Below, piece after piece: positions 15,707 to 58,820 of a DNA stretch of 64,000 nt. The position numbers and the translations under genes are program-made. The stretch comes from Eledone cirrhosa (taxonomy: Eukaryota). The DNA lies in assembly GCA_964016885.1 (NCBI GenBank), contig OZ024741.1:169384001-169448000 (forward strand), written 5' to 3'. Under the pieces are notes generated by a model. The model worked only from the letters and a program-made list of their open reading frames with translations, did no database searches and was not told where the DNA came from. Every line of letters starts with the position of its first letter. Positions within the stretch are counted from its first letter, which is position 1.

Positions 15707-15764
<58 letters not shown>
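15707..15764. repeat. (GATA)n abutting the 3' end of LINE A
   Basis: Directly visible. Confidence 0.97.
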
Positions 15765-15978
15765 TTCTTTATTTACCATAAAGGCATAAAAAGAAGGGAC
15801 AAATACAAAGGGGGAGTTTACATATAATCGAGTAAAAAGGGTGTAACATGAAAATAATCGAAAATAACCTCAAAAGGGAGGGGACGTGATGGGGGTTGCA
15901 CACACCCCCGAAAAAGTGTGCAATCCTTTGCCCGGGGAGCACATGGAGAAGGTGCTCCCCTCTCCTTTACTTCTTTAC

Positions 15979-18900
15979 CTACAGGATGGTATACAGAGAA
16001 GGCCCATTTACACGAGCCATTCTCGCCACTATCACCCACCTTTCATAAAACTGCCTGTGGCCCAGCACCTCTCTCTCCATTCTTATCCTTCTTCCGAAGT
16101 GATATCGGAAGAAGTAGACCAGACTATGGCCAGAGAGGAAGTTGCCTGACCTCAGACCTTTCAATCGTGTCCACCAAACAACCTCTTTCAACATGGCTAT
16201 TACGCACAGAAAAACCGCCTTTGCTTCCTTTGTGAAGAGGGGAGGCGGTTTGATTGTCATCACGGACTCGGCGGTCAATTTAATCGGCGCCACCCGCGAC
16301 AGCAGTTGTTCGGCGTAGCCCCACAGATCAGCCACGCCCGGACATTGCACCAATGCGTGCGCCACGGTTTCTTCGTGACGCACGCATCTAGGGCAAATCT
16401 TTTTTGAGGGATCCCTGCCCGGGCGCCCGTGTCTGTAGAGCCTCTCTCGAACGGGTAGGGCCCCTCGGTAGCACTGCCAGGCCAGTGACTTCTGGAAGTT
16501 GTCCATTGGTCCTGGGCCGAAAGTCCTACCGAACAGGCTGGCCAGTTCGTCTTCTTCCATGTCCAGCGACTCTCCAAGGGTGTCATCGCCCCTGCTAGCC
16601 ACCAGCCCTCTATAGAATGATGAGGTGGATTCTCCACCGATGGCCCGGCCCGCTTGCCAGAGAGCCCTGAGCGCCTGAGCACACTCAGTGTGCCAGTCTC
16701 CCAGTTTTCCGGATCTTTGCTTGACCCAGGACTGTAGCTCGGTGAGTGAGACGAGTCTCGGAAAGGCTCGTTTCACGAACGGAGCCCACACCGGTTGACC
16801 AGTGAGGAATACCTGTAGGTGCCGTAGCCTTAATGCGTGCCTACGCATCATCAACCACGGCATCCCCAGCCCTCCTTTCGAAGGTTGTTGGCAGCAGATG
16901 GATCTTCTCACCATAGGAGGACGCTTCTTCCAAAGAAATTGGAAGAGCATGCGTTCCATGGTGGTGAGTGTTTCCTTAGGGCAAGGCACGACAGTCAGGC
17001 GGTAGTAAGTGACGGACGCTATGTAAATGTTCGCCACCTCCGCCCGGCCTTTTAGGGACAGCTTACACTTGGCCCATTTCTGGGTTAGTGCAAACACCTT
17101 GTTCGTAACCTCGTTCCAGTTCTTTTCCACCTGGAGGTCCGGTCCAAACCAGACCCCAAGCAACTTTACCGGGCCCTCCGTCCAGTGTCCGACGACACCG
17201 TCAGGAGGCATCGGTTTGCCTCTCCACGTTCCGAGTTGCAGCCCGATGGATTTTTCCCGGTTCAGTTTCGCTCCTGACAACCTTTCGTACTCCTCCAGTA
17301 AGGTACCGATCGCCTCGATCTCCGAGTCGGTTGATACCATTACTGTTACGTCATCGGCGTAGGCCGACACCGCTTTGCTCAATCCTGGTTCCAGGGGGAT
17401 ACCCTGCAACAACTCCAACTTCCTCAGTAAAGGCTCGAGAGTCAATACGTACAGAAGGGAGGAGAGAGGGCACCCCTGTCGAATGGATCGTGTGATTTCG
17501 AACGGCTTCGAAAGGTAGCCGTTCACCTTGATCCTAGAACAGATGTGGTTGCTATGTAGGGCAGTGATCCAGCCTCTGAAAACAGGACCGAACCCAGCCG
17601 CCGCTAGCACCGCATCCAGGTAACCATGGTCGACCCTATCGAAGGCCTTAGACTGATCCAAGTTGATCAGGGCCCCACCGAAGCCGGGTTTGTTGCCAAC
17701 CCTCTCTATGATGTATCGCATGAGGTGGAGGTTATCGTGAATGGACCTGGATGGGATAGCACATGTCTGCGCATCTCCCACCAGGCCACCCACGACAAGC
17801 GCCAACCTCTTTGCTAACACCTTGGCCAAAATCTTTAACTCTGTGTTTAGCAGGGTTATGGGCCGAAAATTATTTATACTATCCCCCTTGTTCTCGTCCT
17901 TCCTCACCAGCGTGACTACGCCCTTGGCTACAGAACAAGGAATTCTCCCGTTCTGCTGCCAATTGCAGTAGACCGCTTCGAGGAGTTCGGAGAAGAAGAC
18001 CGGCATTGCTAAATAAAGTTCGTAAGGTATACCATCGAGACCTGGAGATTTGCGTCTGCTGCACTGGCTCAGCGCATCTCCGATCTCATCAGCCGAGATT
18101 GGTCCCTCGCAGGACTCTGCCTCTTTGTTCGAGAGACGCGGCAGACCGTCGAGGTATGGACCGAAATCCACGCCCCGGCCCGGACCCTCGCCTCCCCCGA
18201 ACAATCGGGCAAAGTGCTTTTGAAAGGCCTCGCACATCTGCTTAGGCTCCCGGATCACTCGTCCATCTTCGTCTTGCAACGACCGGATGGTGGATCGATT
18301 TCCACTTTTAGCTTCTGTCACGCGGGCCCATCCAACGGCTTTGGCCCCCTCATTACCTAGAGCACGTATTTTACTTCGAATGACGCAGCCTTCATGCTTT
18401 GCATCGAAAAACTGGTTCAAGGCCGTCCTCGATGCCAGCACTCTGGCCACATCTTCGCTCTTGATTGCCTCTTCTAATTTACCTGTTAATTCTTTCTCGT
18501 TTCTATTCCTATTGGCAGCTAACATCTTGCTATAACTTATTGATTCTGTTCTAATCTCTCTTTTGAGAGATGCCCACCATCGGTTGTTGACGATTGCACC
18601 CGTCAACCTCTCCTTAACTAATCTGCTAATCCGGTTTCTGTAAGTCTCTTTTGCCGGTAAAGACAAATTAAGTTTCCAGTAACCGGGACCCTGTCTATGT
18701 GTTTTCTCGAGATTGACCACGCAGGTCACTAATTTGTGATCCGTGTAGCCAACCGTGCGCATTTCTGGACAGCTTAATATGTCCCTATCCTTACTTCTAA
18801 CTAAGAATCTATCTAAGTACGATCTAGATTGACCACTGTGGTTTCTCCAAGTCCAGGTAGGCACAGTTGGAAAATCTAGTCGATATCTATCGACCAAGTT

Positions 18901-19416
18901 AAAACGGTCGAGTAACCCCTTGAGGCTGTTACACCCCCCTCTATTAGGACATGCTCCTGCATAGTCCCAACGTGCATCCAGGATGTCATTCCAATCCCCC
19001 GCTAGAAGCAGGGAACGCGACGTTCCCAGAAAAGTCTCCAAACGCTGGAAGAAGTCGGGCCGTTCAGCTCCGAAAGGGAAGTAGACGGCGACCAGTCTCA
19101 AGGCCGCACTTTCACTACTGCCAACGTCTAGCACCAACAAACGACCCTCCGGGTCCGAGTGCACAACCTGTACGGCAAGACCCAGGTGTTTTTGCAGCAG
19201 CACGACAACCCCACCCCCACCTCCAGGTTGACAGAGAGATGCATGCACCTCAAAGTCATCGAAGGTGGGGGCCAGCTGCCGCATGACGCTGATTCGAGTC
19301 TCACAGATAACCATTACATTTATACTACATGACCTGAGGTCATTTAGAAGCTTTGCTTGCTTCCAAGTTGAGCCCAGGCCACGTGCATTCAAACATCCTA
19401 CTCTTAACACATCCAT
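15979..19416 (-). CDS. ORF2: APE endonuclease, reverse transcriptase, C-terminal zinc finger
   Basis: NARGL, GDWN, YLDRF, TDH, WKLN, SPGLDG, FRPITLLN, KAFDRV, QGCPLS, YADD, CPRC..H..C; 1145 aa open. Confidence 0.97.
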   Translation of the reverse strand: MDVLRVGCLNARGLGSTWKQAKLLNDLRSCSINVMVICETRISVMRQLAPTFDDFEVHASLCQPGGGGGVVVLLQKHLGLAVQVVHSDPEGRLLVLDVGSSESAALRLVAVYFPFGAERPDFFQRLETFLGTSRSLLLAGDWNDILDARWDYAGACPNRGGCNSLKGLLDRFNLVDRYRLDFPTVPTWTWRNHSGQSRSYLDRFLVRSKDRDILSCPEMRTVGYTDHKLVTCVVNLEKTHRQGPGYWKLNLSLPAKETYRNRISRLVKERLTGAIVNNRWWASLKREIRTESISYSKMLAANRNRNEKELTGKLEEAIKSEDVARVLASRTALNQFFDAKHEGCVIRSKIRALGNEGAKAVGWARVTEAKSGNRSTIRSLQDEDGRVIREPKQMCEAFQKHFARLFGGGEGPGRGVDFGPYLDGLPRLSNKEAESCEGPISADEIGDALSQCSRRKSPGLDGIPYELYLAMPVFFSELLEAVYCNWQQNGRIPCSVAKGVVTLVRKDENKGDSINNFRPITLLNTELKILAKVLAKRLALVVGGLVGDAQTCAIPSRSIHDNLHLMRYIIERVGNKPGFGGALINLDQSKAFDRVDHGYLDAVLAAAGFGPVFRGWITALHSNHICSRIKVNGYLSKPFEITRSIRQGCPLSSLLYVLTLEPLLRKLELLQGIPLEPGLSKAVSAYADDVTVMVSTDSEIEAIGTLLEEYERLSGAKLNREKSIGLQLGTWRGKPMPPDGVVGHWTEGPVKLLGVWFGPDLQVEKNWNEVTNKVFALTQKWAKCKLSLKGRAEVANIYIASVTYYRLTVVPCPKETLTTMERMLFQFLWKKRPPMVRRSICCQQPSKGGLGMPWLMMRRHALRLRHLQVFLTGQPVWAPFVKRAFPRLVSLTELQSWVKQRSGKLGDWHTECAQALRALWQAGRAIGGESTSSFYRGLVASRGDDTLGESLDMEEDELASLFGRTFGPGPMDNFQKSLAWQCYRGALPVRERLYRHGRPGRDPSKKICPRCVRHEETVAHALVQCPGVADLWGYAEQLLSRVAPIKLTAESVMTIKPPPLFTKEAKAVFLCVIAMLKEVVWWTRLKGLRSGNFLSGHSLVYFFRYHFGRRIRMEREVLGHRQFYERWVIVARMARVNGPSLYTIL

Positions 19417-19449
19417 GTGGGCGGCAGAGCCAAAGGAGAGTGTAGAGAC

Positions 19450-21327
19450 CTACCTTTCCGCTTCCCGGGGTTCGGGTTGCACGACTTCCATGGGGTCGGG
19501 GGTGTTGGGTGAAGGGGTGTCTTGTGGTGGTGTGGGGTCGTCGGTGTGTGGTGGGGTTGGGGTGTTTGGAGTTGTGTTGGGGAGGGGAAGGGGAGGGGGA
19601 AAGCTTTTTAGTAGGACGCGGTTTATGGGTTTGACAGAGGGTGGTCCTACGTCCTCCTTAAAATCCTTTTTTAGTTTTTGGTAGAGGTTCATTGGGATTT
19701 TTATTAGTTTTAAATGTGGGTGGTTTTCTGGTGAAACAAAGTTTACACCTTCGGTTTGTACCGAAGGATTATTGTATATGAGTTCATTTAATTTATTATT
19801 GTTTCTGTTGATGTAAGTATAGTGTAATGTCTTTTTTTCCGATGGTGTGAGTGTTTCGAAGAGGGGAGGGGCAGGTTTGGTTTTGTTTGTTGCTGGAGGG
19901 GTGTTTTCTGTTTTGTTAGATTGTGTTGCGATTTGGGTGGGGGTTGTTTGTCCTTGTGTGTTTTGCACATGTTTTCTTTTTTTCCTTTTAATCTGTCTGA
20001 AGGACTCCGTTTCTTCCTCCGAATTCGTTGGGTTATCTTCAGTGTTGGAGGGAAGAGGTATGTTTGCTGGTAATGTTTCCGTGTTGGTTTTCTTTGTGGG
20101 GGAGATGGATGTCACTATGTTAGACTGTGTTGTGTGTTGTGTCTGCGGTGGTTGTGTTGTTTTATTGAGTGAGAGGTTGGGTGGGCCTGTATTTTGTTTT
20201 GGGGTAATGTGTTGTGACTGTTTGTGTTGTGGTGGTGTTGTGGTGTTACTGAGGGACGGGTTGGGTGGGACTGAGTTTTGTTGTTTGTTTATCTGTTGTG
20301 GTGGTGGTGGTGGAGCTGGTGTTGGTAGCAGAGTTTTCTTTTTGTTGAGTTGTGGACAAGCGGCCTTCAGGTGCCCTCTGCCTGCACAGATATGGCAGGA
20401 CGGCCTTCTCCCCTCCACGCTAATGTTTATATACCCGTGGTCCTCTAATAGGATTCTGTCGGGTATTTGGGCGATGCGTTCAGGCTTCATTTGTACTACC
20501 AGCTCTATACCTGTTCCACTGAACGCATTGCCTGTGGTTTTCCCAATGGAAATCACGTTGTCATTCACTGGATCGATGAAGCCAGCTATGAGCCAGCAGT
20601 AGTCCACATCTGGCATCATTGCATCCAGCCATATGCGTTGAGTTTTTTTTCCCATATAAGATGGATAAAAGGTGAAATTTTTCGAACGAATCGGTGACAA
20701 AGCACATTTTTTTGCCGCCGATTCGTTCTTCATGATAATTGCTAGGCTTCCATACAGTCTGTCTTTTCTTATGAAAGTTGTTTCATTCAGTACTTCTGCG
20801 AGTACTGTTTTGATATCTGCTTGAGAAGGCTGTTCAGGTTTTTTTGTACTGTTGTTGATGGTCCGAAACTTGACCGTTCGGCTTTCAATGTCTTTCGTGA
20901 ATTCTTGAGGCATTTTTACCAATAAAATACCATTCTCACCTTCACTTATGTATTGTTTTGCGTCCGTGATCCTTCGTACCACATCTGAAATGTTTTCCGC
21001 TATATAAGTCAAAGATTTCTTTGTTTTCTGTGCAAAAGAAATCTTGTCGTCTGCTTTGTTTTCTGATATGATGTTATTTTCAACTGTTATTTTTTTGTTT
21101 GTTGTCTTTGTTTGTGTTATTAGTATTGTCATGCAATTTTTCAAATTTTTTTTTTTTTCGTTGTTTTCGTCATTTAATTTTTCCTCCGCAGATTCGTCCG
21201 TTTTTATTTTCATTTTTCCTTCCTTCTCTATGACGTTAGTTGGGAAGGAAGGGAGGACTAAAGCGTGCGAGCTTACAACTCTTACCGCTGTCCCCCCACC
21301 ACTATTTTCGTTCGCTGCGTTTAACAT
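19450..21327 (-). CDS. ORF1 nucleic-acid-binding protein
   Basis: 625 aa upstream of ORF2; CHICAGRGHLKAAC zinc knuckle, P/T-rich linker, basic KRKKRK. Confidence 0.92.
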   Translation of the reverse strand: MLNAANENSGGGTAVRVVSSHALVLPSFPTNVIEKEGKMKIKTDESAEEKLNDENNEKKKNLKNCMTILITQTKTTNKKITVENNIISENKADDKISFAQKTKKSLTYIAENISDVVRRITDAKQYISEGENGILLVKMPQEFTKDIESRTVKFRTINNSTKKPEQPSQADIKTVLAEVLNETTFIRKDRLYGSLAIIMKNESAAKKCALSPIRSKNFTFYPSYMGKKTQRIWLDAMMPDVDYCWLIAGFIDPVNDNVISIGKTTGNAFSGTGIELVVQMKPERIAQIPDRILLEDHGYINISVEGRRPSCHICAGRGHLKAACPQLNKKKTLLPTPAPPPPPQQINKQQNSVPPNPSLSNTTTPPQHKQSQHITPKQNTGPPNLSLNKTTQPPQTQHTTQSNIVTSISPTKKTNTETLPANIPLPSNTEDNPTNSEEETESFRQIKRKKRKHVQNTQGQTTPTQIATQSNKTENTPPATNKTKPAPPLFETLTPSEKKTLHYTYINRNNNKLNELIYNNPSVQTEGVNFVSPENHPHLKLIKIPMNLYQKLKKDFKEDVGPPSVKPINRVLLKSFPPPLPLPNTTPNTPTPPHTDDPTPPQDTPSPNTPDPMEVVQPEPREAER

Positions 21328-21557
21328 TTCTGTTAGACGATTGAAATTTTTTACACAAAATTTTTTAAAACAGGTTTTTCACCTCTAGGAGGGGTAAAGA
21401 TGAGCTGACCCACCGCCTGACAGTTCAGACGGAGGGTCAAGCTACACAATTGTATCAAAATTAAGTTTGAACTCACAAAATTTCCTCAATAAATTTGAAC
21501 AAAACTTCTGTGCGAAGTGAATGACATCCACACTGTAGAACAGACGACAGCTAGATT

Positions 21558-21576
21558 GATAGATAGATAGATAGAT
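21558..21576. repeat. Short (GATA)n junction between copies A and B
   Basis: Directly visible. Confidence 0.9.
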
Positions 21577-21790
21577 TTCTTTATTTACCATAAAGGCATA
21601 AAAAGAAGGGACAAATACAAAGGGGGAGTTTACATATAATCGAGTAAAAAGGGTGTAACATGAAAATAATCGAAAATAACCTCAAAAGGGAGGGGACGTG
21701 ATGGGGGTTGCACACACCCCCGAAAAAGTGTGCAATCCTTTGCCCGGGGAGCACATGGAGAAGGTGCTCCCCTCTCCTTTACTTCTTTAC

Positions 21791-24700
21791 CTACAGGATG
21801 GTATACAGAGAAGGCCCATTTACACGAGCCATTCTCGCCACTATCACCCACCTTTCATAAAACTGCCTGTGGCCAAGCACCTCTCTCTCCATTCTTATCC
21901 TTCTTCCGAAGTGATATCGGAAGAAGTAGACCAGACTATGGCCAGAGAGGAAGTTGCCTGACCTCAGACCTTTCAATCGTGTCCACCAAACAACCTCTTT
22001 CAACATGGCTATTACGCACAGAAAAACCGCCTTTGCTTCCTTTGTGAAGAGGGGAGGCGGTTTGATTGTCATCACGGACTCGGCTGTCAATTTAATCGGC
22101 GCCACCCGCGACAGCAGTTGTTCGGCGTAGCCCCACAGATCAGCCACGCCCGGACATTGCACCAATGCGTGCGCCACGGTTTCTTCGTGACGCACGCATC
22201 TAGGGCAAATCTTTTTTGAGGGATCCCTGCCCGGGCGCCCGTGTCTGTAGAGCCTCTCTCGAACGGGTAGAGCCCCTCGGTAGCACTGCCAGGCCAGTGA
22301 CTTCTGGAAGTTGTCCATTGGTCCTGGGCCGAAAGTCCTACCGAACAGGCTGGCCAGTTCGTCTTCTTCCATGTCCAGCGACTCTCCAAGGGTGTCATCG
22401 CCCCTGCTAGCCACCAGCCCTCTATAGAATGATGAGGTGGATTCTCCACCGATGGCCCGGCCCGCTTGCCAGAGAGCCCTGAGCGCCTGAGCACACTCAG
22501 TGTGCCAGTCTCCCAGTTTTCCGGATCTTTGCTTGACCCAGGACTGTAGCTCGGTGAGTGAGACGAGTCTCGGAAAGGCTCGTTTCACGAACGGAGCCCA
22601 CACCGGTTGACCAGTGAGGAATACCTGTAGGTGCCGTAGCCTTAATGCGTGCCTACGCATCATCAACCACGGCATCCCCAGCCCTCCTTTCGAAGGTTGT
22701 TGGCAGCAGATGGATCTTCTCACCATAGGAGGACGCTTCTTCCAAAGAAATTGGAAGAGCATGCGTTCCATGGTGGTGAGTGTTTCCTTAGGGCAAGGCA
22801 CGACAGTCAGGCGGTAGTAAGTGACGGACGCTATGTAAATGTTCGCCACCTCCGCCCGGCCTTTTAGGGACAGCTTACACTTGGCCCATTTCTGGGTTAG
22901 TGCAAACACCTTGTTCGTAACCTCGTTCCAGTTCTTTTCCACCTGGAGGTCCGGTCCAAACCAGACCCCAAGCAACTTTACCGGGCCCTCCGTCCAGTGT
23001 CCGACGACACCATCGGGAGGCATCGGTCTGCCTCTCCACGTTCCGAGTTGCAGCCCGATGGATTTTTCCCGGTTCAGTTTCGCTCCTGACAACCTTTCGT
23101 ACTCCTCCAGTAAGGTACCGATCGCCTCGATCTCCGAGTCGGTTGATACCATTACTGTTACGTCATCGGCGTAGGCCGACACCGCTTTGCTCAATCCTGG
23201 TTCCAGGGGGATACCCTGCAACAACTCCAACTTCCTCAGTAAAGGCTCGAGAGTCAATACGTACAGAAGGGAGGAGAGAGGGCACCCCTGTCGAATGGAT
23301 CGTGTGATTTCGAACGGCTTCGAAAGGTAGCCGTTCACCTTGATCCTAGAACAGATGTGGTTGCTATGTAGGGCAGTGATCCAGCCTCTGAAAACAGGAC
23401 CGAACCCAGCCGCCGCTAGCACCGCATCCAGGTAACCATGGTCGACCCTATCGAAGGCCTTAGACTGATCCAAGTTGATCAGGGCCCCACCGAAGCCGGG
23501 TTTGTTGCCAACCCTCTCTATGATGTATCGCATGAGGTGGAGGTTATCGTGAATGGACCTGGATGGGATAGCACATGTCTGCGCATCTCCCACCAGGCCA
23601 CCCACGACAAGCGCCAACCTCTTTGCTAACACCTTGGCCAAAATCTTTAACTCTGTGTTTAGCAGGGTTATGGGCCGAAAATTATTTATACTATCCCCCT
23701 TGTTCTCGTCCTTCCTCACCAGCGTGACTACGCCCTTGGCTACAGAACAAGGAATTCTCCCGTTCTGCTGCCAATTGCAGTAGACCGCTTCGAGGAGTTC
23801 GGAGAAGAAGACCGGCATTGCTAAATAAAGTTCGTAAGGTATACCATCGAGACCTGGAGATTTGCGTCTGCTGCATTGGCTCAGCGCATCTCCGATCTCA
23901 TCAGCCGAGATTGGTCCCTCGCAGGACTCCGCCTCTTTGTTCGAGAGACGCGGCAGGCCGTCGAGGTATGGACCGAAATCCACGCCCCGGCCCGGACCCT
24001 CGCCTCCCCCGAACAATCGGGCAAAGTGCTTTTGAAAGGCCTCGCACATCTGCTTAGGCTCCCGGATCACTCGTCCATCTTCGTCTTGCAACGACCGGAT
24101 GGTGGATCGATTTCCACTTTTAGCTTCTGTCACGCGGGCCCATCCAACGGCTTTGGCCCCCTCATTACCTAGAGCACGTATTTTACTTCGAATGACGCAG
24201 CCTTCATGCTTTGCATCGAAAAACTGGTTCAAGGCCGTCCTCGATGCCAGCACTCTGGCCACATCTTCGCTCTTGATTGCCTCTTCTAATTTACCTGTTA
24301 ATTCTTTCTCGTTTCTATTCCTATTGGCAGCTAACATCTTGCTATAACTTATTGATTCTGTTCTAATCTCTCTTTTGAGAGATGCCCACCATCGGTTGTT
24401 GACGATTGCACCCGTCAACCTCTCCTTAACTAATCTGCTAATCCGGTTTCTGTAAGTCTCTTTTGCCGGTAAAGACAAATTAAGTTTCCAGTAACCGGGA
24501 CCCTGTCTATGTATTTTCTCGAGATTGACCACGCAGGTCACTAATTTGTGATCCGTGTAGCCAACCGTGCGCATTTCTGGACAGCTTAATATGTCCCTAT
24601 CCTTACTTCTAACTAAGAATCTATCTAAGTACGATCTAGATTGACCACTGTGGTTTCTCCAAGTCCAGGTAGGCACAGTTGGAAAATCTAGTCGATATCT

Positions 24701-25228
24701 ATCGACCAAGTTAAAACGGTCGAGTAACCCCTTGAGGCTGTTACACCCCCCTCTATTAGGACATGCTCCTGCATAGTCCCAACGTGCATCTAGGATGTCA
24801 TTCCAATCCCCCGCTAGAAGCAGGGAACGCGACGTTCCCAGAAAAGTCTCCAAACGCTGGAAGAAGTCGGGCCGTTCAGCTCCGAAAGGGGAGTAGACGG
24901 CGACCAGTCTCAAGGCCGCACTTTCACTACTGCCAACGTCTAGCACCAACAAACGACCCTCCGGGTCCGAGTGCACAACCTGTACGGCAAGACCCAGGTG
25001 TTTTTGCAGCAGCACGACAACCCCACCCCCACCTCCAGGTTGACAGAGAGATGCATGCACCTCAAAGTCATCGAAGGTGGGGGCCAGCTGCCGCATGACG
25101 CTGATTCGAGTCTCACAGATAACCATTACATTTATACTACATGACCTGAGGTCATTTAGAAGCTTTGCTTGCTTCCAAGTTGAGCCCAGGCCACGTGCAT
25201 TCAAACATCCTACTCTTAACACATCCAT
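21791..25228 (-). CDS. ORF2 (APE-RT-zinc finger), copy B
   Basis: 1145 aa; differs from A at AVYF/AVYS, EKT/EKI and RGK/RGR. Confidence 0.97.
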   Translation of the reverse strand: MDVLRVGCLNARGLGSTWKQAKLLNDLRSCSINVMVICETRISVMRQLAPTFDDFEVHASLCQPGGGGGVVVLLQKHLGLAVQVVHSDPEGRLLVLDVGSSESAALRLVAVYSPFGAERPDFFQRLETFLGTSRSLLLAGDWNDILDARWDYAGACPNRGGCNSLKGLLDRFNLVDRYRLDFPTVPTWTWRNHSGQSRSYLDRFLVRSKDRDILSCPEMRTVGYTDHKLVTCVVNLEKIHRQGPGYWKLNLSLPAKETYRNRISRLVKERLTGAIVNNRWWASLKREIRTESISYSKMLAANRNRNEKELTGKLEEAIKSEDVARVLASRTALNQFFDAKHEGCVIRSKIRALGNEGAKAVGWARVTEAKSGNRSTIRSLQDEDGRVIREPKQMCEAFQKHFARLFGGGEGPGRGVDFGPYLDGLPRLSNKEAESCEGPISADEIGDALSQCSRRKSPGLDGIPYELYLAMPVFFSELLEAVYCNWQQNGRIPCSVAKGVVTLVRKDENKGDSINNFRPITLLNTELKILAKVLAKRLALVVGGLVGDAQTCAIPSRSIHDNLHLMRYIIERVGNKPGFGGALINLDQSKAFDRVDHGYLDAVLAAAGFGPVFRGWITALHSNHICSRIKVNGYLSKPFEITRSIRQGCPLSSLLYVLTLEPLLRKLELLQGIPLEPGLSKAVSAYADDVTVMVSTDSEIEAIGTLLEEYERLSGAKLNREKSIGLQLGTWRGRPMPPDGVVGHWTEGPVKLLGVWFGPDLQVEKNWNEVTNKVFALTQKWAKCKLSLKGRAEVANIYIASVTYYRLTVVPCPKETLTTMERMLFQFLWKKRPPMVRRSICCQQPSKGGLGMPWLMMRRHALRLRHLQVFLTGQPVWAPFVKRAFPRLVSLTELQSWVKQRSGKLGDWHTECAQALRALWQAGRAIGGESTSSFYRGLVASRGDDTLGESLDMEEDELASLFGRTFGPGPMDNFQKSLAWQCYRGALPVRERLYRHGRPGRDPSKKICPRCVRHEETVAHALVQCPGVADLWGYAEQLLSRVAPIKLTAESVMTIKPPPLFTKEAKAVFLCVIAMLKEVVWWTRLKGLRSGNFLSGHSLVYFFRYHFGRRIRMEREVLGHRQFYERWVIVARMARVNGPSLYTIL

Positions 25229-25261
25229 GTGGGCGGCAGAGCCAAAGGAGAGTGTAGAGAC

Positions 25262-27139
25262 CTACCTTTCCGCTTCCCGGGGTTCGGGTTGCACGACTTC
25301 CATGGGGTCGGGGGTGTTGGGTGAAGGGGTGTCTTGTGGTGGTGTGGGGTCGTCGGTGTGTGGTGGGGTTGGGGTGTTTGGAGTTGTGTTGGGGAGGGGA
25401 AGGGGAGGGGGAAAGCTTTTTAGTAGGACGCGGTTTATGGGTTTGACAGAGGGTGGTCCTACGTCCTCCTTAAAATCCTTTTTTAGTTTTTGGTAGAGGT
25501 TCATTGGGATTTTTATTAGTTTTAAATGTGGGTGGTTTTCTGATGAAACAAAGTTTACACCTTCGGTTTGTACCGAAGGATTATTGTATATGAGTTCATT
25601 TAATTTATTATTGTTTCTGTTGATGTAAGTATAGTGTAATGTCTTTTTTTCCGATGGTGTGAGTGTTTCGAAGAGGGGAGGGGCAGGTTTGGTTTTGTTT
25701 GTTGCTGGAGGGGTGTTTTCTGTTTTGTTAGATTGTGTTGCGATTTGGGTGGGGGTTGTTTGTCCTTGTGTGTTTTGCACATGTTTTCTTTTTTTCCTTT
25801 TAATCTGTCTGAAGGACTCCGTTTCTTCCTCCGAATTCGTTGGGTTATCTTCAGTGTTGGAGGGAAGAGGTATGTTTGCTGGTAATGTTTCCGTGTTGGT
25901 TTTCTTTGTGGGGGAGATGGATGTCACTATGTTAGACTGTGTTGTGTGTTGTGTCTGCGGTGGTTGTGTTGTTTTATTGAGTGAGAGGTTGGGTGGGCCT
26001 GTATTTTGTTTTGGGGTAATGTGTTGTGACTGTTTGTGTTGTGGTGGTGTTGTGGTGTTACTGAGGGACGGGTTGGGTGGGACTGAGTTTTGTTGTTTGT
26101 TTATCTGTTGTGGTGGTGGTGGTGGAGCTGGTGTTGGTAGCAGGGTTTTCTTTTTGTTGAGTTGGGGACAAGCGGCCTTCAGGTGCCCTCTGCCTGCACA
26201 GATATGGCAGGACGGCCTTCTCCCCTCCACGCTAATGTTTATATACCCGTGGTCCTCTAATAGGATTCTGTCGGGTATTTGGGCGATGCGTTCAGGCTTC
26301 ATTTGTACTACCAGCTCTATACCTGTTCCACTGAACGCATTGCCTGTGGTTTTCCCAATGGAAATCACGTTGTCATTCACTGGATCGATGAAGCCAGCTA
26401 TGAGCCAGCAGTAGTCCACATCTGGCATCATTGCATCCAGCCATATGCGTTGAGTTTTTTTCCCCATATAAGATGGATAAAAGGTGAAATTTTTCGAACG
26501 AATCGATGACAAAGCACATTTTTTTGCCGCCGATTCGTTCTTCATGATAATTGCTAGGCTTCCATACAGTCTGTCTTTTCTTATGAAAGTTGTTTCATTC
26601 AGTACTTCTGCGAGTACTGTTTTGATATCTGCTTGAGAAGGCTGTTCAGGTTTTTTTGTACTGTTGTTGATGGTCCGAAACTTGACCGTTCGGCTTTCAA
26701 TGTCTTTCGTGAATTCTTGAGGCATTTTTACCAATAAAATACCATTCTCACCTTCACTTATGTATTGTTTTGCGTCCGTGATCCTTCGTACCATATCTGA
26801 AATGTTTTCCGCTATATAAGTCAAAGATTTCTTTGTTTTCTGTGCAAAAGAAATCTTGTCGTCTGCTTTGTTTTCTGATATGATGTTATTTTCAACTGTT
26901 ATTTTTTTGTTTGTTGTCTTTGTTTGTGTTATTAGTATTGTCATGCAATTTTTCAAATTTTTTTTTTTTTCGTTGTTTTCGTCATTTAATTTTTCCTCCG
27001 CAGATTCGTCCGTTTTTATTTTCATTTTTCCTTCCTTCTCTATGACGTTAGTTGGGAAGGAAGGGAGGACTAAAGCGTGCGAGCTTACAACTCTTACCGC
27101 TGTCCCCCCACCACTATTTTCGTTCGCTGCGTTTAACAT
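25262..27139 (-). CDS. ORF1, copy B
   Basis: 625 aa with intact CCHC knuckle; three amino-acid differences from A seen. Confidence 0.92.
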   Translation of the reverse strand: MLNAANENSGGGTAVRVVSSHALVLPSFPTNVIEKEGKMKIKTDESAEEKLNDENNEKKKNLKNCMTILITQTKTTNKKITVENNIISENKADDKISFAQKTKKSLTYIAENISDMVRRITDAKQYISEGENGILLVKMPQEFTKDIESRTVKFRTINNSTKKPEQPSQADIKTVLAEVLNETTFIRKDRLYGSLAIIMKNESAAKKCALSSIRSKNFTFYPSYMGKKTQRIWLDAMMPDVDYCWLIAGFIDPVNDNVISIGKTTGNAFSGTGIELVVQMKPERIAQIPDRILLEDHGYINISVEGRRPSCHICAGRGHLKAACPQLNKKKTLLPTPAPPPPPQQINKQQNSVPPNPSLSNTTTPPQHKQSQHITPKQNTGPPNLSLNKTTQPPQTQHTTQSNIVTSISPTKKTNTETLPANIPLPSNTEDNPTNSEEETESFRQIKRKKRKHVQNTQGQTTPTQIATQSNKTENTPPATNKTKPAPPLFETLTPSEKKTLHYTYINRNNNKLNELIYNNPSVQTEGVNFVSSENHPHLKLIKIPMNLYQKLKKDFKEDVGPPSVKPINRVLLKSFPPPLPLPNTTPNTPTPPHTDDPTPPQDTPSPNTPDPMEVVQPEPREAER

Positions 27140-27369
27140 TTCTGTTAGACGATTGAAATTTTTTACACAAAATTTTTTAAAACAGGTTTTTCACCTCTAG
27201 GAGGGGTAAAGATGAGCTGACCCACCGCCTGACAGTTCAGACGGAGGGTCAAGCTACACAATTGTATCAAAATTAAGTTTGAACTCACAAAATTTCCTCA
27301 ATAAATTTGAACAAAACTTCTGTGCGAAGTGAATGACATCCACACTGTAGAACAGACGACAGCTAGATT

Positions 27370-27444
<75 letters not shown>
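27370..27444. repeat. (GATA)n abutting the 5' end of LINE B
   Basis: Directly visible. Confidence 0.97.
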
Positions 27445-27547
27445 CAATTGTATTTACATTGAATGATTTTAACATTATGATAAATGAGGTCATTCTATAT
27501 AATAGCATCAGAAATTATCGCCACACTTTCTTTTAGTTTGAATGGTC

Positions 27548-42303: not shown

Positions 42304-42335
<32 letters not shown>
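41484..42335 (+). mobile_element. 5'-truncated CR1-clade LINE with (ATT)n tail, unit 5
   Basis: KCTTMHFG..CERDL..LYMAMVRP.LEFASPVW.P; absent from units 1-4. Confidence 0.88.
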
Positions 42336-45085: not shown

Positions 45086-45300
45086 GAATGCCATGGTTGA
45101 CGGAGGCTCGGCTCTGTAAGGTATAGTAATTTTTAACCGTTAAAACAATTGTAAATTGTTTAAAACTTGAACCAAATTGTTGATAAAGACACCCTCCTCC
45201 TCGTGAGAGGGGTCTTTCTGTCCGTTATTTGGCCCTTCGGGGTTAAATAACCAGTTATTGGGGTTTTGTACCCAAAATTTCATTTTAAACAAAAAACAAC

Positions 45301-47397
45301 ATGGCTACGAAAAAGAAATTTCATACGTCATTCCCACTCATTCCGTCTTCTTCTTCCTCAATCATCACTACAGCAGAGAGAAGATTGTCTCTCTCCCTCC
45401 CTTCTTTAAATGTGTCTCTCTCCCTCCCTTCTCTTTCGCAAGTGACGAAAGAAAAGAAAAGTCTCGTGCAAAGCGTGCAAGGTTTCTCCACGACGACGAC
45501 GACAGCGACGAAACAGGTGTGCGGGAAATACGAAAACCCAGTTCATTCGTCTGACGTCAGGAATAATAGCAGTAGCAGCCGTAATAACAACAGCAACAGT
45601 GACAATGAAAACAACAGTAGCAGCCGCAACAGCATCACCAGCAGCATAAACAACAACAGCATTAGCAGCAGCAACACCAACAACAACCACAGCAACAGCG
45701 GCGGAGGCAGTAGTCGTAGTACCTGCAGCAACAACAAAAGTACCAGCAGCTCTGACGACAACAACAACAGCAGAGAAAAACCAATCTCATTTGCAGGTAT
45801 TGCGAAAAACTTGGAAACAATCCTCATAACAAATGAGGAATTAGAGGAAGCGAAGAAGATGGTGACAAAGAACGGACACCGAGCAATCTGCAAGGCAGCG
45901 GAAAATTTTTTCGAAACCCAAGAGCACTGTACGGTCACGTACCGTACAGTAAGTACAAAATCCCGTAGGGTGGAAAGAGCCACAGAGGCCCAAATACAAA
46001 AAGCCTTGGGGTCTGTGTGGCAGCGGAAAACGCACATCACCCGAGGCAAAAAATATGCCACCGTAGACGTACTTTTTGCCACACCCCAGGAGGCAAAGGC
46101 CCAATCAGTAGTGACCCTAAGGAGCGAGGAAATGGTGTTGGTGCCCTCCTACTGCGGGCAAAAAATTGTGAGGGTCAAACTGACCCACGTCCCCCCCGGA
46201 ATGACCCCTTCTTGGCTGGCCGCGTCTGTCCTCGTCGGAATCGAGGACAAAACAACTGTACTGCAAGTACAGAAAAAAGTAAGAGAAGATTGGGTCGGCT
46301 CCTCCATTGAGATGCTAATCCAAACCAACCAGGAGTGCATCGAAGCTATCCCGGATGTGATAGACTTCGATAACGGCACTCAACTGCCCATAAGTGTTGA
46401 GGGCAAACGCCCGAAATACTTTCGCTGTGGATCGAAGACTCACCTCAGGGCCTTCTGCAACGAGAAGACCCTGAGAAAGGAGAAAACCCCCCTCCTTCCG
46501 AATCCGGCTCCACGGCTACCAGCAACAGGACAAGCGGCAACCAGGAACGATAGGCCCGTGGCACCCATACCCACTCCACGGAAATCAAAAACAGCAGCAG
46601 CAGTGGAAATATTAACAACAACAACAGCAATACCAAATGCAGCTGCAACAGAGACTCCAGTGCAAACATCACCAACAACAACAAGTGAAAGAGTGGAGCT
46701 GGTACCCCTCCCCGACCTCACAGAATCAGACATGGAGTGTGAGGTGGGAGAGGGATGGCAAAAGGTCGTAAGAAGGCACAAACGCAGAAGCAGCGCATCG
46801 TCGCCTTTGAAAAGGGAGGAAAGAAATGAGAAAAGGGTAAAGTATACTGCAAAGAGACCCACAGCAGCAACAACACCAACACCATCACCACCCACACTAG
46901 CACCACCATCACCACCGGCGACAACCCCACCGCCAACAACACCTTCAACACCACCACCACAAGCACCAACATCGCAAACACAACAACAAAACACACACAC
47001 CCAGCAACAACGACAAGAAAATAGCAGAACCACACCCCACCCCCAGAAAAACAAATGCACGGCAATAAATACACACAACAAGAAACTAATGACTTACATA
47101 ATTGAACACACAGACATTTCACAACAGGACTACATAATACCAGCACCAATCAAAACGCCAACTAACATAAGACTGCTAAAAATAGCACAGAAACAATACA
47201 CAAACATTAAAACGAAATTCCCCAACGCAGTTGGTGATTTCAGGGACCTAGGAGGAACCATCAATCGAAGAGTATACTCAGACATTCTCTTAGAAGAGCC
47301 GACGACCAGCCGAAGGGACGATTCAACGGTCCCTTCACCAGACGATCAAGTGAAAAGGGATGTAAAAACCATCCCTCCTCTACCAAAAGTACGGTAA
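45301..47397 (+). CDS. ORF1 of LINE C
   Basis: 698 aa; N/S-rich N-terminus; knuckle YFRCGSKTHLRAFC lacks the first Cys. Confidence 0.85.
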   Translation: MATKKKFHTSFPLIPSSSSSIITTAERRLSLSLPSLNVSLSLPSLSQVTKEKKSLVQSVQGFSTTTTTATKQVCGKYENPVHSSDVRNNSSSSRNNNSNSDNENNSSSRNSITSSINNNSISSSNTNNNHSNSGGGSSRSTCSNNKSTSSSDDNNNSREKPISFAGIAKNLETILITNEELEEAKKMVTKNGHRAICKAAENFFETQEHCTVTYRTVSTKSRRVERATEAQIQKALGSVWQRKTHITRGKKYATVDVLFATPQEAKAQSVVTLRSEEMVLVPSYCGQKIVRVKLTHVPPGMTPSWLAASVLVGIEDKTTVLQVQKKVREDWVGSSIEMLIQTNQECIEAIPDVIDFDNGTQLPISVEGKRPKYFRCGSKTHLRAFCNEKTLRKEKTPLLPNPAPRLPATGQAATRNDRPVAPIPTPRKSKTAAAVEILTTTTAIPNAAATETPVQTSPTTTSERVELVPLPDLTESDMECEVGEGWQKVVRRHKRRSSASSPLKREERNEKRVKYTAKRPTAATTPTPSPPTLAPPSPPATTPPPTTPSTPPPQAPTSQTQQQNTHTQQQRQENSRTTPHPQKNKCTAINTHNKKLMTYIIEHTDISQQDYIIPAPIKTPTNIRLLKIAQKQYTNIKTKFPNAVGDFRDLGGTINRRVYSDILLEEPTTSRRDDSTVPSPDDQVKRDVKTIPPLPKVR

Positions 47398-47432
47398 GTG
47401 GTCTTTCCCATCTTTTCCACTCTATTTTAAAC

Positions 47433-50400
47433 ATGACCTCACTCAGAATAGGCAGCATAAATGCGCGTGGCTTGGGGTCGTCATGGAAGCAGGGTCACCT
47501 GCTCAACGACCTCAGGTCACTAAACATAGATGTAGTGGCCATCAGCGAGACCAGAATCTCCGAAGCACGGGCCTTCGCACCGATCTTCGGCGGCTACGAT
47601 GTGTACGCATCTCCCAGCCGTCCTGGATCCGGTGGAGGAGTTGCTGTGCTTTTTCGGAGAGGTTTGGATCTCGCCATACGGGCCATCTTCCTGGACCCAG
47701 AGGGTAAGCTGGTGGTGCTGGACGTGACCAGCGGAGACGGGCAAGCTTTCAGGCTAGTGGCCGTCTATGCCCCGACAGGAGCAGAGCAGCCTGATTTCTT
47801 CCGGCGTCTGGAGACCTTTCTTGGAACGTCCCGCTCTTTAGTGTTAGTGGGCGACTGGAACGGGATCTTAGATGCACGCTGGGACTGTGTGGGATTAGCG
47901 GATAGGGGTGGAGGGTGCAAGAGCCTCACCAACCTGGCAGGCGTTTTGAACTGTCTGACAGGTACCGATTGGATTTCCCGAATGTGCCAATGTGGACTTG
48001 GACAAACCGCATAGGGTCATCCAGATCATATCTAGATAGAGTATTTTGTAGGGAAATAGATAGGTCTAGCATAGGCTGTCCACAATTCAAGATAGTCAGC
48101 TACACGGACCACAAATTCGTGATCTGTGTGCTTGACTTAGATAGGCTTCATAGACGAGGACCCGGCTACTGGAAGCTAAACAAGTCCTTACCAGCGCGCA
48201 AGGCCTACAGAGACCGGATTAGCGAACTAGTTAAGCGGGCGTTGACAGGGGCCATCGTCAACAACAAGTGGTGGTTTGCTCTGAAAAGAGCGATTAGAAT
48301 AGAATCGTTTAGGTTTAGTAAGGCTTTAGCAATAGAGAAAAATAGAGCAGAGGGAGAACTAGTTAGAAAATTAGACGAGGCGCTTAGCAAAGGCATTGCG
48401 ACCGACGTGCTTGCGGCGAAATTGGCCCTTGACCAATTCTTCAATGCAAAGCACGAAGGCTGCGTTGTCAGAGCAAGGGTGCATGCTCTCAGACACGAGG
48501 GGACGAAAGCCGTTCAATGGGCCCGAGTGGCGGAGGCGCGTCGTGGCAACAAAGCCACGATCCGGTCTTTGGTGGACCACGACGGGCGCATGCTACTCGA
48601 TCCCGGGCAAATGTGTGAAGCTTTTCAGCGACACTTCGCTCAGCTGTTCGGGGGCAGCGGTGGGCCGGGTAGAGGGATGGACTTTAGTGTCTACCTCGAC
48701 GGACTGCCGCGGCTCTCGGCCACTGAGGCGAAGTGTTGCGAAAAGCTGATAACAGCCGCTGAAGTAAGGGAGGCAATGACTGGCTGCACAAGGGGTAAAT
48801 CGCCTGGTTTGGATGGTCTGCCCTATGAACTTTACGTACAGATGCCAGACTTGTTCGGAGGCCTCTTGGCGGACGTCTACTGCAACTGGCAACAGAACGG
48901 GATAATTCCCAGTTCTGTGAGCCGAGGAGCGGTGGCACTGCTGAGAAAGGATCCGAACAAGGGGGATAACATAGACAATTTCCGGCCCATAACTCTGCTA
49001 AACACAGAGTTTAAGATTTTGGCCAAGGTGCTAGCAAAGAGGTTGGCGCTTGTCGTTGGTGGTCTGGTGGGAGAGGCGCAGATATGCGCCATTCCCGACA
49101 GATCCATCCACGACAACCTCCACCTCATGCGATACATCGTAGAGAGGGTAGCTAGGGAACCTGGCACGGGTGGGTCCTTGATCAATTTAGATCAGTCGAA
49201 AGCTTTCGATAGGGTCGACCATCGTTACCTAGCGGCAGTCCTGAGGGCGGCTGGCTTTGGGCCCGTCTTCAGAGGCTGGATCGCTGCCATGCACAGCGAC
49301 ATCTGCTCTGTGGTGAGAGTGAACGGTCACCTGTCGGAACCGTTCAACATCATGCGCTCGGTCCGCCAAGGATGTCCCCTCTCGTCCCTCTTGTACGTAT
49401 TGACTCTCGAGCCATTACTGCACAAACTGGAGACGTTGAGGGGAGTCCCGCGCGAACTAGGATGCGGAAGATCCGTGTCAGCATATGCCGACGATGTCAC
49501 CGTAGTGGTGTCGAACGCCAAACACATCGAGGCGATCGGCACTACACTAAGAGAATACGAAGCGGTGACAGGAGCAATGATCAACCAGGAAAAGTCAGTG
49601 GGCCTGCAGCTCGGCACCTGGAGAGGCAGGTCCATGCCGTCCAACAGCGTCGTCGGACGCTGGACGGACGGACCGGTTAAATTGCTAGGGGTCTGGTTCG
49701 GTCCGGACCTCCAGACGGACAAAAACTGGGACGAGGTGACGAGCAGGGTGGCTTCTCTCACCCAGAAATGGGCGGAGAGGAAGCTATCCCTGAAAGGTCG
49801 AGCGGAGGTGGCTAACGCGTACATCGCGTCTGTCATCTGCTACCGCCTGACCGTCGTACCTTGTCCTAAGCCTCGCCTGACTGCGCTGGAGCGTTTGCTC
49901 TTTCGCTTTTTGTGGAAGGGACGTGCTCCGATGGTCAGACGGTCCATCTGTTGTCAACACCCGCTACGTGGAGGGCTGGGCATGCCGTGGCTGATGATGC
50001 GCAGCACGCGCTCAGGCTACGACATCTCCACCTCTTCCTCGACGGTGATCAGGTGTGGTCGCCGTTTGCTAGGCGCGTATTTCCCCAGCTCGTTTCCTTG
50101 ACGGAGCTGCAGTCCCGGGTCAAGCGAAGACCGAGAGGGAGCGCCTGGAGCCTGGAATGTCTTCAGGCGCTCACAGCCCTCGACCAATCGGGCAATGTGA
50201 TCGGTGGAAACTCCACCTCGGCGTTCTATAGAGGATTAGTGGAGGGTAAGAGCGACGACGTACTTGGGGAAACTCTAGGCGTCGACGAAAATCAACTAGC
50301 CAATCTCTTCGGAAGAACTTTCGGGCCGGGGCCTATGGACAATTTCCAAAAATCTCTGGCCTGGCAGTGCTACCGAGGAACCTTGCCAGTTCGGGATAAA

Positions 50401-50850
50401 CTCTACAGGCATGGAGGTGCCGTCAGCTGGGCATGTCCGAGATGCGCGCAGGGCGACGAAACCGTCCTGCACGCACTCGTCCAGTGTCCGAAAATTGCTG
50501 ACTTGTGGGTTTATGTCGAACACCTGCTGTCGCGTTTAGGACGGATCCGGCTATCATCTGAGTCCATCGTGAGGATTACCCCGCCTTCCTCCTTTAGCCG
50601 GGAAGGGCAGGCAGTTTTTATCTGTCTGGTGGCCATGGCGAAAGAGATAGTATGGTGGACACGTTTGAAAGGGCTGAAGACGAGCACTTACCTCTTCGGT
50701 GATGCCCTGATTAACTTTTTCAAATTTCATTTGCAAAGGAAAATCAGGGTAGAGAGGGAAGTGCTCTCTTCCCAGCATTTTGTTGAAAGATGGGTGAGAG
50801 AAGCAAGAATGGCCCGAGTGAATGGGCCTACTCTGAGTATATATCTGTAA
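47433..50850 (+). pseudogene. ORF2 of LINE C with two frameshifts (about 47937 and 50003)
   Basis: Three overlapping ORFs together give APE, RT (YADD) and zinc finger. Confidence 0.9.
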
Positions 50851-51582
50851 ATTAAAGGTGGAAAACTGGGAGAGGGCACTTGCCTTGGTGGTTAGGGTCA
50901 TTGTGGCTTTTTACTGGGCTTTCTCCACAAATGTCCCTCCGAAGTCTCCCCCCTTTTGGGGAATTTTTCATTGTTATTTTCATTGTTATTTTTGTTACAT
51001 CCTCTGTTTTTGTTTTTTACACGCAGAAATGCCCAATTGTACCGTCCTGCATTGTCCTGCACTGTCCTTAATGTCTACTTTATGTAAACCCTTGTGGTTA
51101 ATAAAGAAATCATTATTATTATTATTATTATTATATAAATTAACCGTGAGAGACACTAAAGACACACACACAAATCTCAATTTGCGTTATTCATCGATCT
51201 GCTGGAAACAACGTTGATATTTGTCTCAACTAACAGCCTCTCTCCTGGAAGAAGGAAAAAACGGTGATAAATACTTTTCTGCAAGTTTGTGTTAGTAGTT
51301 AATGCTAACACCAAATGTTGAATTATTTCCCTTGATTAATACAAGATAGTAGATTTGAAGGCGTAAGTAAAGATAGTTTAGTTGTTAAATTGATAAAGTT
51401 TGTATAAAGAAGAATAACTTTGAAAGTAAAGAGTAGTGAATAAGTGTATAAATAAAATAATTTGCAAGTTGTATTGTTTTTTCTATTGTGGAATTAAATT
51501 TTGAGTAGTTGTTGATGGTATAAAGTCAGTAGATCTTTTGTAAGTATAATGTTATATGAAGAAAGTGATTATGGTATCTAGC

Positions 51583-52952: not shown

Positions 52953-53805
52953 CAAGTGCACCACCATGCATTTTGGGAGTAAAAACCCAGCGTCCACATA
53001 CTCCCTCCACAGCACTAATATCAAGAAGTCTTCTTGTGAACGTGACCTGGACATTGCGGTCAGCAGCGATTTGCGTTGGACGAAGCACGTCTCTAAAATT
53101 GTCAAGAGGGCCGAGGGTGTCTTAACATCACTCAGCAAGACCTTTGTCAGCCGCTCTCCTGCTATCTATTTAAGGCTGTACATGGCTATGGTGCGGCCAC
53201 ACTTAGAATTTGCATCACCAGTCTGGAACCCCTAGCTTGCTCAGAACATTGACCGCCTGGAAACTGTTGAGAGACGTGCAACCAAGCGAATACCCTCCAT
53301 CAGGCATCTACCATACTCTGAGTGCCTTGCTTCCCTGGGCATGGATACATTGAAGCTCCGACGCCTGGCAACTGACTTGGTAAACACCGACAAAATTGTT
53401 AACCATCTTGCCAACAACAACCCTGAGTAGCTTTTTGATTTCCATGTGTCTAACACACGTGGGCATGCCCACAAAGTCTGAAAACAGTACAGTTCCAATG
53501 ACTTTCGGAAACATTTTTTCACGCTCAGAGTTGCTGAAGAATGTAACAAACTACCTGCATCGGTTGTTAGCTGTCGAGACACTGCATCCTTTAAGGCCTC
53601 CATGCTTCCCGAGATTCGCCAACACTACACCTAATGACCCCCCTCCTTCTCCATACACATACACACATGTATATCATGACTCATACACTATTCACTTCCC
53701 TGACATTTGTGTTTTATTCTATGTACTATACATGCACCTTTGACGAGTTGTAGTGCACCTGAGCACTTTACAAAATAATTTCATTATTATTATTATTATT
53801 ATTAT
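52953..53805 (+). mobile_element. CR1 fragment, unit 7; (ATT)n site empty
   Basis: Same as 41484. Confidence 0.88.
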
Positions 53806-58786: not shown

Positions 58787-58820
58787 GTGGCCTTTCCCAT
58801 CTTTTCCACTCCTTTTCAAC

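What the first reader, a model, noticed from the sequence alone, without database searches (positions are those of the whole stretch)
15707..27444. Intact (GATA)n-associated LINE stacked head-to-tail in its own target
Seen: two 5.8-kb copies with both ORFs open, GATA tracts at all three junctions, no poly(A) and few substitutions. The 5' end (minus aatctagctg) resembles the target repeat. Known: Tx1-clade families such as Kibi and Koshi target microsatellites. Inference: a recently active element specific for (TATC)n that regenerates its target; I do not know of a described GATA-specific family.
Basis: partly seen in the sequence, partly recalled or inferred. Interest (0 to 1): 0.72.

Follow-up and report, generated by a model that had tools for sequence, protein, structure and literature searches.

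The report
LINE retrotransposon pair in GATA repeats
Two intact, nearly identical jumping genes sit nose-to-tail inside a (GATA)n microsatellite, and close relatives in the same stretch of DNA sit in (ATT)n repeats, so this looks like a known kind of repeat-targeting retrotransposon that has moved to a new target.

Summary
Observation confirmed: two 5,796-bp L1-group LINEs (minus strand), both ORFs open, 18 substitutions and no gaps, with the window's only three (GATA)3+ tracts at the three junctions and no poly(A). Twelve of 18 differences are synonymous against 5.6 expected (P=0.002), which points to two source elements rather than a haplotype duplication. A sister family (73% RT identity) gives an internal control: it fills an (ATT)n tract in 2 of 4 U1-array units, with repeats on both sides, and 2 units are empty. 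Both families end in AATAAAGAAA(T/A)C, so the repeat probably comes from the target. Family-wide (TATC)n specificity and read support for the dimer could not be tested. Tx1-clade membership rests on anatomy, not on a referenced tree. No (TATC)n-targeting LINE turned up in the paper searches; Repbase and Dfam were not searchable. Unexplained: the ORF1 stop overlaps a conserved splice-donor consensus. Verdict: a new target variant of known microsatellite-targeting Tx1-type LINEs.

The parts
15707..15761 (-). (TATC)n tract, 55 bp, downstream of copy 1
15762..21557 (-). LINE copy 1, full length, 5,796 bp
15762..15978 (-). 3' UTR of copy 1, U-rich; AATAAA at 15768-15773; ends AATAAAGAAATC like the (ATT)n sister family; no poly(A)
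15979..19416 (-). ORF2 of copy 1, 1,145 aa: AP endonuclease (N10, E40, Y112, D142, N144, D202, D226-H227), RT (YADD at 686), C-terminal CCHC (1008-1025)
   Evidence: Pfam Exo_endo_phos, RVT_1, zf-RVT (zf-RVT just under its cut-off); best PDB match human L1 ORF2p E=3e-50; residue positions read on copy 2's protein
19417..19453 (-). ORF1 stop inside a splice-donor-like AG|GTAGGT, then a 33-nt AG-free, pyrimidine-rich spacer; function untested
19450..21327 (-). ORF1 of copy 1, 625 aa from the first ATG: predicted tandem RRM (about 151-304), one CCHC knuckle (311-324), long Pro/Thr-rich tail
   Evidence: no Pfam hit
21328..21557 (-). 5' UTR of copy 1; first 12 nt are degenerate TATC units; folds better than 200 of 200 shuffles (z -3.9, fold included 18 nt of the tract)
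21558..21573 (-). Junction tract (TATC)4, 16 bp (up to about 19 if the in-phase terminal bases are counted); an upper bound on the target-site duplication if the dimer arose by a second insertion
   Evidence: inference
21574..27369 (-). LINE copy 2, full length, 5,796 bp
21791..25228 (-). ORF2 of copy 2, 1,145 aa, open
25262..27139 (-). ORF1 of copy 2, 625 aa, open
27370..27444 (-). (TATC)n tract, 75 bp, upstream of copy 2; the one tract that cannot be a tail of either copy
45086..51111 (+). Sister LINE ATT1 (frameshifted ORF2) between (ATT)10 and (ATT)7 in a U1-array spacer; comparison locus
56584..62445 (+). Sister LINE ATT2 (broken ORFs, different 5' half) between (ATT)7 and (ATT)8 plus degenerate units in another array unit; comparison locus
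42305..42334 (+). Empty (ATT)10 site, same flanks as the filled sites
53783..53803 (+). Empty (ATT)7 site, same flanks as the filled sites

Best explanation
A recently active, autonomous Tx1-type (L1-group) LINE of a cephalopod-like lineage that inserts into (TATC)n/(GATA)n microsatellites by target-primed reverse transcription. Shown: intact ORFs and catalytic residues, tracts on both sides, two source elements. Inferred steps: (1) the AP endonuclease nicks the GATA strand inside a tract; (2) the RNA, cut shortly after the AAUAAA that lies 6 nt before the element's end, carries a few read-through UAUC units that pair with the freed primer, so no poly(A) is copied; (3) a second nick at most about 16-19 bp away duplicates part of the tract. 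Each insertion therefore leaves target on both sides, and a second copy from a slightly different source element landed four repeat units from the first.
For: 3 of 3 GATA tracts in 64 kb lie at the junctions, including the 75-bp tract at copy 2's 5' end. 12 of 18 differences are synonymous against 5.6 expected, P=0.002; ORF2 alone 9 of 12, P=0.0024. In public runs, 8 of the 18 diagnostic sites are among the 40 rows shown (845 rows hidden); at all 8 the alternative letter is the other copy's, and at 2 of them both letters are common in run X2. Sister family: 2 of 4 array units filled, with (ATT)n on both sides, and 2 empty. The two filled copies have 5' halves that barely align and 31 synonymous of 51 differing codons, so they are separate insertions at the same site. 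The families share the terminal AATAAAGAAA(T/A)C but are followed by different repeats. Known Tx1 families target (TC)n, (TTC)n, (TTCC)n and (TTTC)n (PMC4494074).
Against: Only one independent 5' tract exists for this family; other copies could not be read (no genome; the read tool skipped 21545-21589). ORF1 alone shows no significant synonymous excess (3 of 6, P=0.26). The old LINE-like fragment left of 15707 breaks at the tract and does not resume at 27445, so an empty site cannot be rebuilt and a rearrangement is possible. A third, decayed (ATT)-family copy (7240-9239) has an ATT-like tract at its 3' end but none at its 5' break. No nicking or priming step was tested.
Confidence: 0.62

Rival explanations
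1. The preference for (TATC)n is real but comes from RNA-DNA pairing of a repeat tail with any nick or break in a matching tract; the endonuclease is not sequence-specific.
For: The element's last bases and its degenerate 5' end are in phase with the repeat. For L1, nicking specificity is the main but perhaps not the only determinant, and RNA-target pairing is proposed (PMC1950540 passages).
Against: The wild-type Tx1L endonuclease nicks its target almost exclusively (PMC1950540). The sister families share a terminus but differ at 40% of endonuclease residues (142 of 236 identical), including the hairpin loop region.
Confidence: 0.15
2. Two copies inserted at separate sites and were brought together later by deletion or recombination between their GATA tracts, or by an assembly join across two loci.
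For: The left and right flanks do not read as one interrupted sequence. The junction was not testable in reads.
Against: The junction tract is only 16 bp, short for recombination or for an overlap, and about the size expected of a target-site duplication (inference). This history would still put GATA at both 5' ends.
Confidence: 0.12
3. The element inserts without target preference and makes a (TATC)n tail by slippage; the 5' tract is chance or the tail of a lost third copy.
For: RTE-clade LINEs end in short repeats and are rarely flanked by matching targets (PMC13295347 passages). The decayed sister copy has a 3' tract only.
Against: No element 3' end lies beyond 27444. No other GATA tract occurs in the window. 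The sister family has repeats on both sides and empty sites that hold the tract.
Confidence: 0.06
4. One insertion, duplicated as two haplotypes by the assembler or by unequal crossover between alleles.
For: 99.7% identity; no read spanning the junction could be examined.
Against: Alleles of one insertion should differ neutrally, but 12 of 18 changes are synonymous (P=0.002); gene conversion from other copies could mimic this. The duplication stops at the element ends and includes no flank.
Confidence: 0.05

Closest known systems
Kibi and Koshi (Tx1 clade, teleosts)
   Same: AP-endonuclease LINEs inserted into microsatellites (PMC4494074 and PMC3812793 passages).
   Different: Their targets are (TC)n and (TTC)n; here (TATC)n, with an (ATT)n sister. 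The nearest named relative here is from Argonauta hians. Kinship to Kibi/Koshi was not testable.
Crocodilian Tx1 group (Tx1-1_Crp, Tx1-2_AMi and others)
   Same: Tx1 families that prefer tetranucleotide repeats (PMC4494074 section 15).
   Different: Their targets are (TTCC)n or (TTTC)n, in reptiles; no TATC is named in the text read, and the figure and supplement were not visible.
Tx1L (Xenopus) and Tx1-1_ACar (anole)
   Same: Site-specific Tx1 elements; the Tx1L endonuclease is sequence-specific in vitro (PMC1950540).
   Different: Their targets are the Tx1D transposon and telomeric repeats.
L1-Tx1 families annotated in Octopus vulgaris
   Same: 13 recently active families and 421 insertions are listed (PMC13282606 Table 1); this family or a relative may be among them.
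   Different: The word 'target' does not occur in that paper's main text; sequences were not compared.
Dong (TAA)n elements
   Same: Same repeat as the (ATT)n sister family (PMC3812793).
   Different: Dong is an R4-clade element with a restriction-like endonuclease (recalled, no call); the window's elements encode an AP endonuclease.
Human L1
   Same: ORF2 architecture; best solved-structure match, E=3e-50 against 1e-20 to 1e-17 for R2.
   Different: L1 has a poly(A) tail, a TTTT/AA target and a type II ORF1p (the tail is recalled); here no poly(A) and an RRM-RRM-CCHC ORF1.

Membership tests
L1 group (L1 + Tx1) non-LTR retrotransposons | Two ORFs; ORF2 = N-terminal AP endonuclease + RT + C-terminal CCHC, no RNase H | tested here: met
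   best PDB match L1 ORF2p
Tx1 clade | RT groups with named Tx1 references (Tx1L, Kibi, Koshi, Keno) | not testable with these tools
   No such reference came back; the tree has none
Tx1 clade | Type I ORF1 (RRM plus CCHC), described as consistent with Tx1 in non-mammalian animals (PMC5203782) | tested here: met
   CCHC at 311-324; low-confidence model (mean pLDDT 42, mostly 50-78 in the domain) matches tandem RRMs at about E=2e-5; Atlas neighbours zf-CCHC and ZCCHC3-type RNA-binding domains
Target-specific Tx1 families | More than 20% of flanks of the family's copies are one sequence type (criterion in PMC4494074) | not testable with these tools
   No genome held; junction skipped by the read tool. 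In the window 2 of 2 copies are flanked, at one locus
Target-specific Tx1 families | Target-site duplication inside the target | tested here: inconclusive
   Hidden in the pure repeat; junction 16 bp. Sister family: 17 and 15 or more ATT units around filled sites against 10 and 7 at empty sites
Kibi / Koshi | Target (TC)n or (TTC)n | tested here: not met
   Tracts are (TATC)n
Crocodilian microsatellite Tx1 group | Target (TTCC)n or (TTTC)n | tested here: not met
   Tracts are (TATC)n
Mammalian-type L1 | Poly(A) tail and Transposase_22-type ORF1 | tested here: not met
   Longest A run 3; no Pfam hit in ORF1

The most novel reading that the evidence does not exclude
A cephalopod LINE lineage that has radiated onto different microsatellites through changes in its endonuclease, and that controls its two proteins by host splicing. 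A donor overlapping the ORF1 stop, an AG-free pyrimidine spacer and a first downstream AG in frame with ORF2 define a 51-53-nt intron whose removal would fuse ORF1 to ORF2; alternatively the donor makes an ORF1-only subgenomic RNA or serves as a U1 binding site.
Probability: 0.12. Interest if true: 0.75.

Novelty: new variant of a known kind. Interest (0 to 1): 0.45.

Why it matters
How AP-type LINE endonucleases pick microsatellites was called 'not well understood' in a 2013 review (PMC3812793). Two close relatives here (73% RT and 60% endonuclease identity, shared 3' end) appear to use different repeats, and the (TATC)n one has intact ORFs. That is a ready natural pair for separating endonuclease choice from RNA-tail pairing. 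Self-renewing targets also offer a route by which such elements stack and multiply microsatellites in repeat-rich genomes. The kind of system is known, so the gain is a new target and a tractable test case, not a new principle, unless the splice signal proves functional.

Tried and rejected
Whole-genome survey of flanks: no genome held. Reads and contigs from 4 of the 22 listed runs were laid on one permuted unit (18700-24500); the tool skipped 21545-21589, so neither the junction nor the end flanks could be read; its depths are not copy numbers. No RNA holder listed, which says nothing on expression; none of the 15 joints shown (120 hidden) matches the candidate intron. Metagenome scan: the 80 best loci are only 23-34% identical and the scan stopped at 17 of 64 parts; 9 of 80 hold some short repeat, none informative, and 0 of the 20 whose ORF2 start was reached have the donor motif. 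Viral contigs: 0 matches to the 3'-end pattern; 0 of 43 candidates confirmed. Named Tx1 references were sought without success. The tree leaves the order inside the 5-row cephalopod-like clade unresolved, so it does not show that the two window families are each other's closest kin. The 3' UTR does not fold clearly better than shuffles (z -1.6). A tail of a hidden third copy beyond 27444 was looked for and not found. Earlier findings: nothing in 5 of 5 look-ups. Kojima and Fujiwara 2004 is not held, and the supplement of PMC4494074 was not readable; either could list a TATC target.
Full report
Observation. Two copies of a 5,796-bp element lie head to tail on the minus strand (15762-21557 and 21574-27369). 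Each has an open 625-aa ORF1 and 1,145-aa ORF2. They differ at 18 of 5,794 aligned positions, with no gaps. Tracts of 55, 16 and 75 bp of (TATC)n lie at the three junctions, and they are 3 of 3 tracts with three or more such units in the 64 kb. There is no poly(A). The first 12 nt are three one-mismatch copies of TATC; about 0.0002 of background positions do as well, though the length was picked after looking.

What it is. ORF2 carries an AP endonuclease, a reverse transcriptase and a C-terminal zinc finger, with the catalytic residues in place. Its best solved relative is human L1 ORF2p (E=3e-50), far ahead of R2. ORF1 has no Pfam hit, but it has one CCHC knuckle, and a low-confidence model built on 3 sequences matches tandem RRM structures at about E=2e-5. 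That is a type I ORF1, described as consistent with the Tx1 clade in non-mammalian animals (PMC5203782, passages). The nearest named proteins are from Argonauta hians (61% identity). In an RT tree of 34 rows, this element, the sister element, the Argonauta protein and two unnamed proteins form a 100/100 clade with unresolved inner order. I infer a cephalopod host. No named Tx1 reference was retrieved, so Tx1 membership is by anatomy only.

Is the dimer real, and how did it arise? All 18 differences fall in the ORFs. Twelve are synonymous against 5.6 expected under neutrality with transitions and transversions treated apart (P=0.002). ORF2 alone gives 9 of 12 (P=0.0024); ORF1 alone gives 3 of 6 (P=0.26). 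Alleles of one insertion should differ neutrally, so the copies more likely came from two source elements; gene conversion could mimic this. Public runs of two coded organisms hold the family along its whole length (4 of 22 listed runs laid). Of the 18 diagnostic sites, 8 are among the 40 rows shown (845 hidden). At all 8 the alternative letter is the other copy's, and at 2 both letters are common in run X2. The tool skipped 21545-21589, so the junction itself remains unconfirmed by reads.

Target or tail? The 75-bp tract upstream of copy 2 cannot be a tail of either copy, and no third 3' end lies beyond it. It is, however, the only independent 5' observation. The stronger evidence is next door. 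From 32,671 to 63,097 the window holds 9 U1 snRNA genes. Four array units carry the same (ATT)n site: 2 are empty, with 10 and 7 units, and 2 are filled by a sister LINE, with 10+7 and 7+8 or more units. The sister is about 70% identical in ORF2 DNA, 73% in RT and 60% in the endonuclease (142 of 236). The two filled copies have 5' halves that align only in two short patches. Their ORF2s differ at 3.5% against 1.5% and 2.0% for their own flanks (all 12 flank pairs: 1.3-3.4%), and 31 of 51 differing codons are synonymous (P=4e-5 at a neutral share of 0.33). They are thus separate insertions into the same tract. Both families end in AATAAAGAAA(T/A)C and are then followed by different repeats. Against this reading: a third, decayed sister copy has an ATT-like tract at its 3' end but none at its 5' break, and the old LINE-like fragment left of the dimer breaks at the tract without resuming on the right.

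Mechanism. I favour target-primed reverse transcription inside the tract (0.62). The nick on the GATA strand, priming through a few read-through UAUC units after the near-terminal AAUAAA, and a second nick at most 16-19 bp away are all inferred. They account for the missing poly(A), for tracts on both sides and for stacking. Rivals: preference through RNA pairing alone (0.15), two loci joined later through their tracts (0.12), a slippage tail without preference (0.06), and a duplicated single insertion (0.05). The Tx1L endonuclease is sequence-specific in vitro, its hairpin loop alters L1 nicking when grafted, and the authors allow for extra determinants such as RNA-target pairing (PMC1950540, passages).

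An unexplained signal. In all 3 full-length element types in the window the ORF1 stop overlaps a strong splice-donor consensus (AG|GTAGGT, CG|GTAAGT, AG|GTAAGT). It is the only such site in this element and in ATT1, and 1 of 2 in ATT2; the window has 17 on both strands. The spacers are 33, 35 and 34 nt, AG-free and pyrimidine-rich, and the first AG downstream is in frame with ORF2, giving introns of 51, 53 and 52 nt. ATT1 and ATT2 share ancestry here, so they count once. A loose end in run X20 shows a further lineage with the same donor, but its intron would be only about 42 nt by my count, which is short. None of 20 distant relatives has the motif. A fusion splice would also tend to remove itself on retrotransposition, so a U1-binding or subgenomic role is as likely. 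No RNA test was possible.

Comparison and novelty. Microsatellite-targeting Tx1 families are known: Kibi (TC)n, Koshi (TTC)n and crocodilian (TTCC)n/(TTTC)n (PMC4494074, passages and section 15; supplement unreadable); a review lists further targets and no TATC (PMC3812793, passages). Tandem insertion in a target is known for Utopia (PMC4640811, passages), and telomeric Tx1-1_ACar is cited in PMC10088271 (passages). An Octopus vulgaris annotation lists 13 recently active L1-Tx1 families without using the word 'target' (PMC13282606, passages). Passages of PMC8967140, PMC13295347 and PMC8869645 showed no TATC target. Searches listed no paper naming a (TATC)n-specific LINE (22 and 23 returned 0; the other listings were judged by title, start of abstract and the passages cited). 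Searches showed no ORF1-ORF2 intron. Kojima and Fujiwara 2004 was not held, and Repbase and Dfam could not be searched, so absence from print is not established.

Verdict. A real, recently active L1-group LINE that works like Kibi and Koshi but fails their target test. It is a new variant of a known kind; interest 0.45.

Noticed in passing
window 32671-63097: Tandem array of 9 U1 snRNA genes with irregular spacers; four units share a LINE remnant followed by an (ATT)n tract.
   Followed up: partly
window 45086-51111 and 56584-62445: Two sister LINEs in the same (ATT)n site of different U1 units. Their ORF2 and 3' ends are about 95% alike but their 5' halves differ, with the switch about 45 nt before the ORF1 stop, which suggests exchange of 5' UTR/ORF1 modules.
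   Followed up: partly
window 19417-19453, 47394-47432, 58783-58820: Splice-donor consensus overlapping the ORF1 stop, followed by an AG-free pyrimidine spacer, in all three full-length element types.
   Followed up: partly
window about 51000-51035 and 62340-62370: The 3' UTRs of the (ATT) family hold a pyrimidine run ending in CAG, like a splice acceptor; the (TATC) family has no equally good one.
   Followed up: no
window 7240-9239: Decayed, 5'-broken copy of the (ATT) family on the minus strand, its 3' tract followed by what looks like a SINE head.
   Followed up: partly
window 15071-15706: Old LINE-like fragment (RTE-like by recall, not tested) with a 313-bp internal duplication at 89%; it breaks at the GATA tract.
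   Followed up: partly
window 4004-4197, 11333-11800, 32051-32371, 54447-54562: Many SINE-like copies whose ends (AGAAACAATTATT) loosely resemble the sister LINE's end plus tract; possible partners.
   Followed up: no
window 21328-21557 (-): The 5' UTR folds more stably than 200 of 200 shuffles (z -3.9), with one long GC-rich hairpin.
   Followed up: no
window 20126-20300 and 25938-26112: An 84-bp two-copy repeat inside the Pro/Thr-rich part of ORF1.
   Followed up: no
P0203 cluster: Fish (Metynnis) gene models of about 1,511 aa join a CCHC-bearing ORF1-like part to ORF2 and have neighbouring locus tags; whether the join is real or a gene-prediction product is unknown.
   Followed up: no
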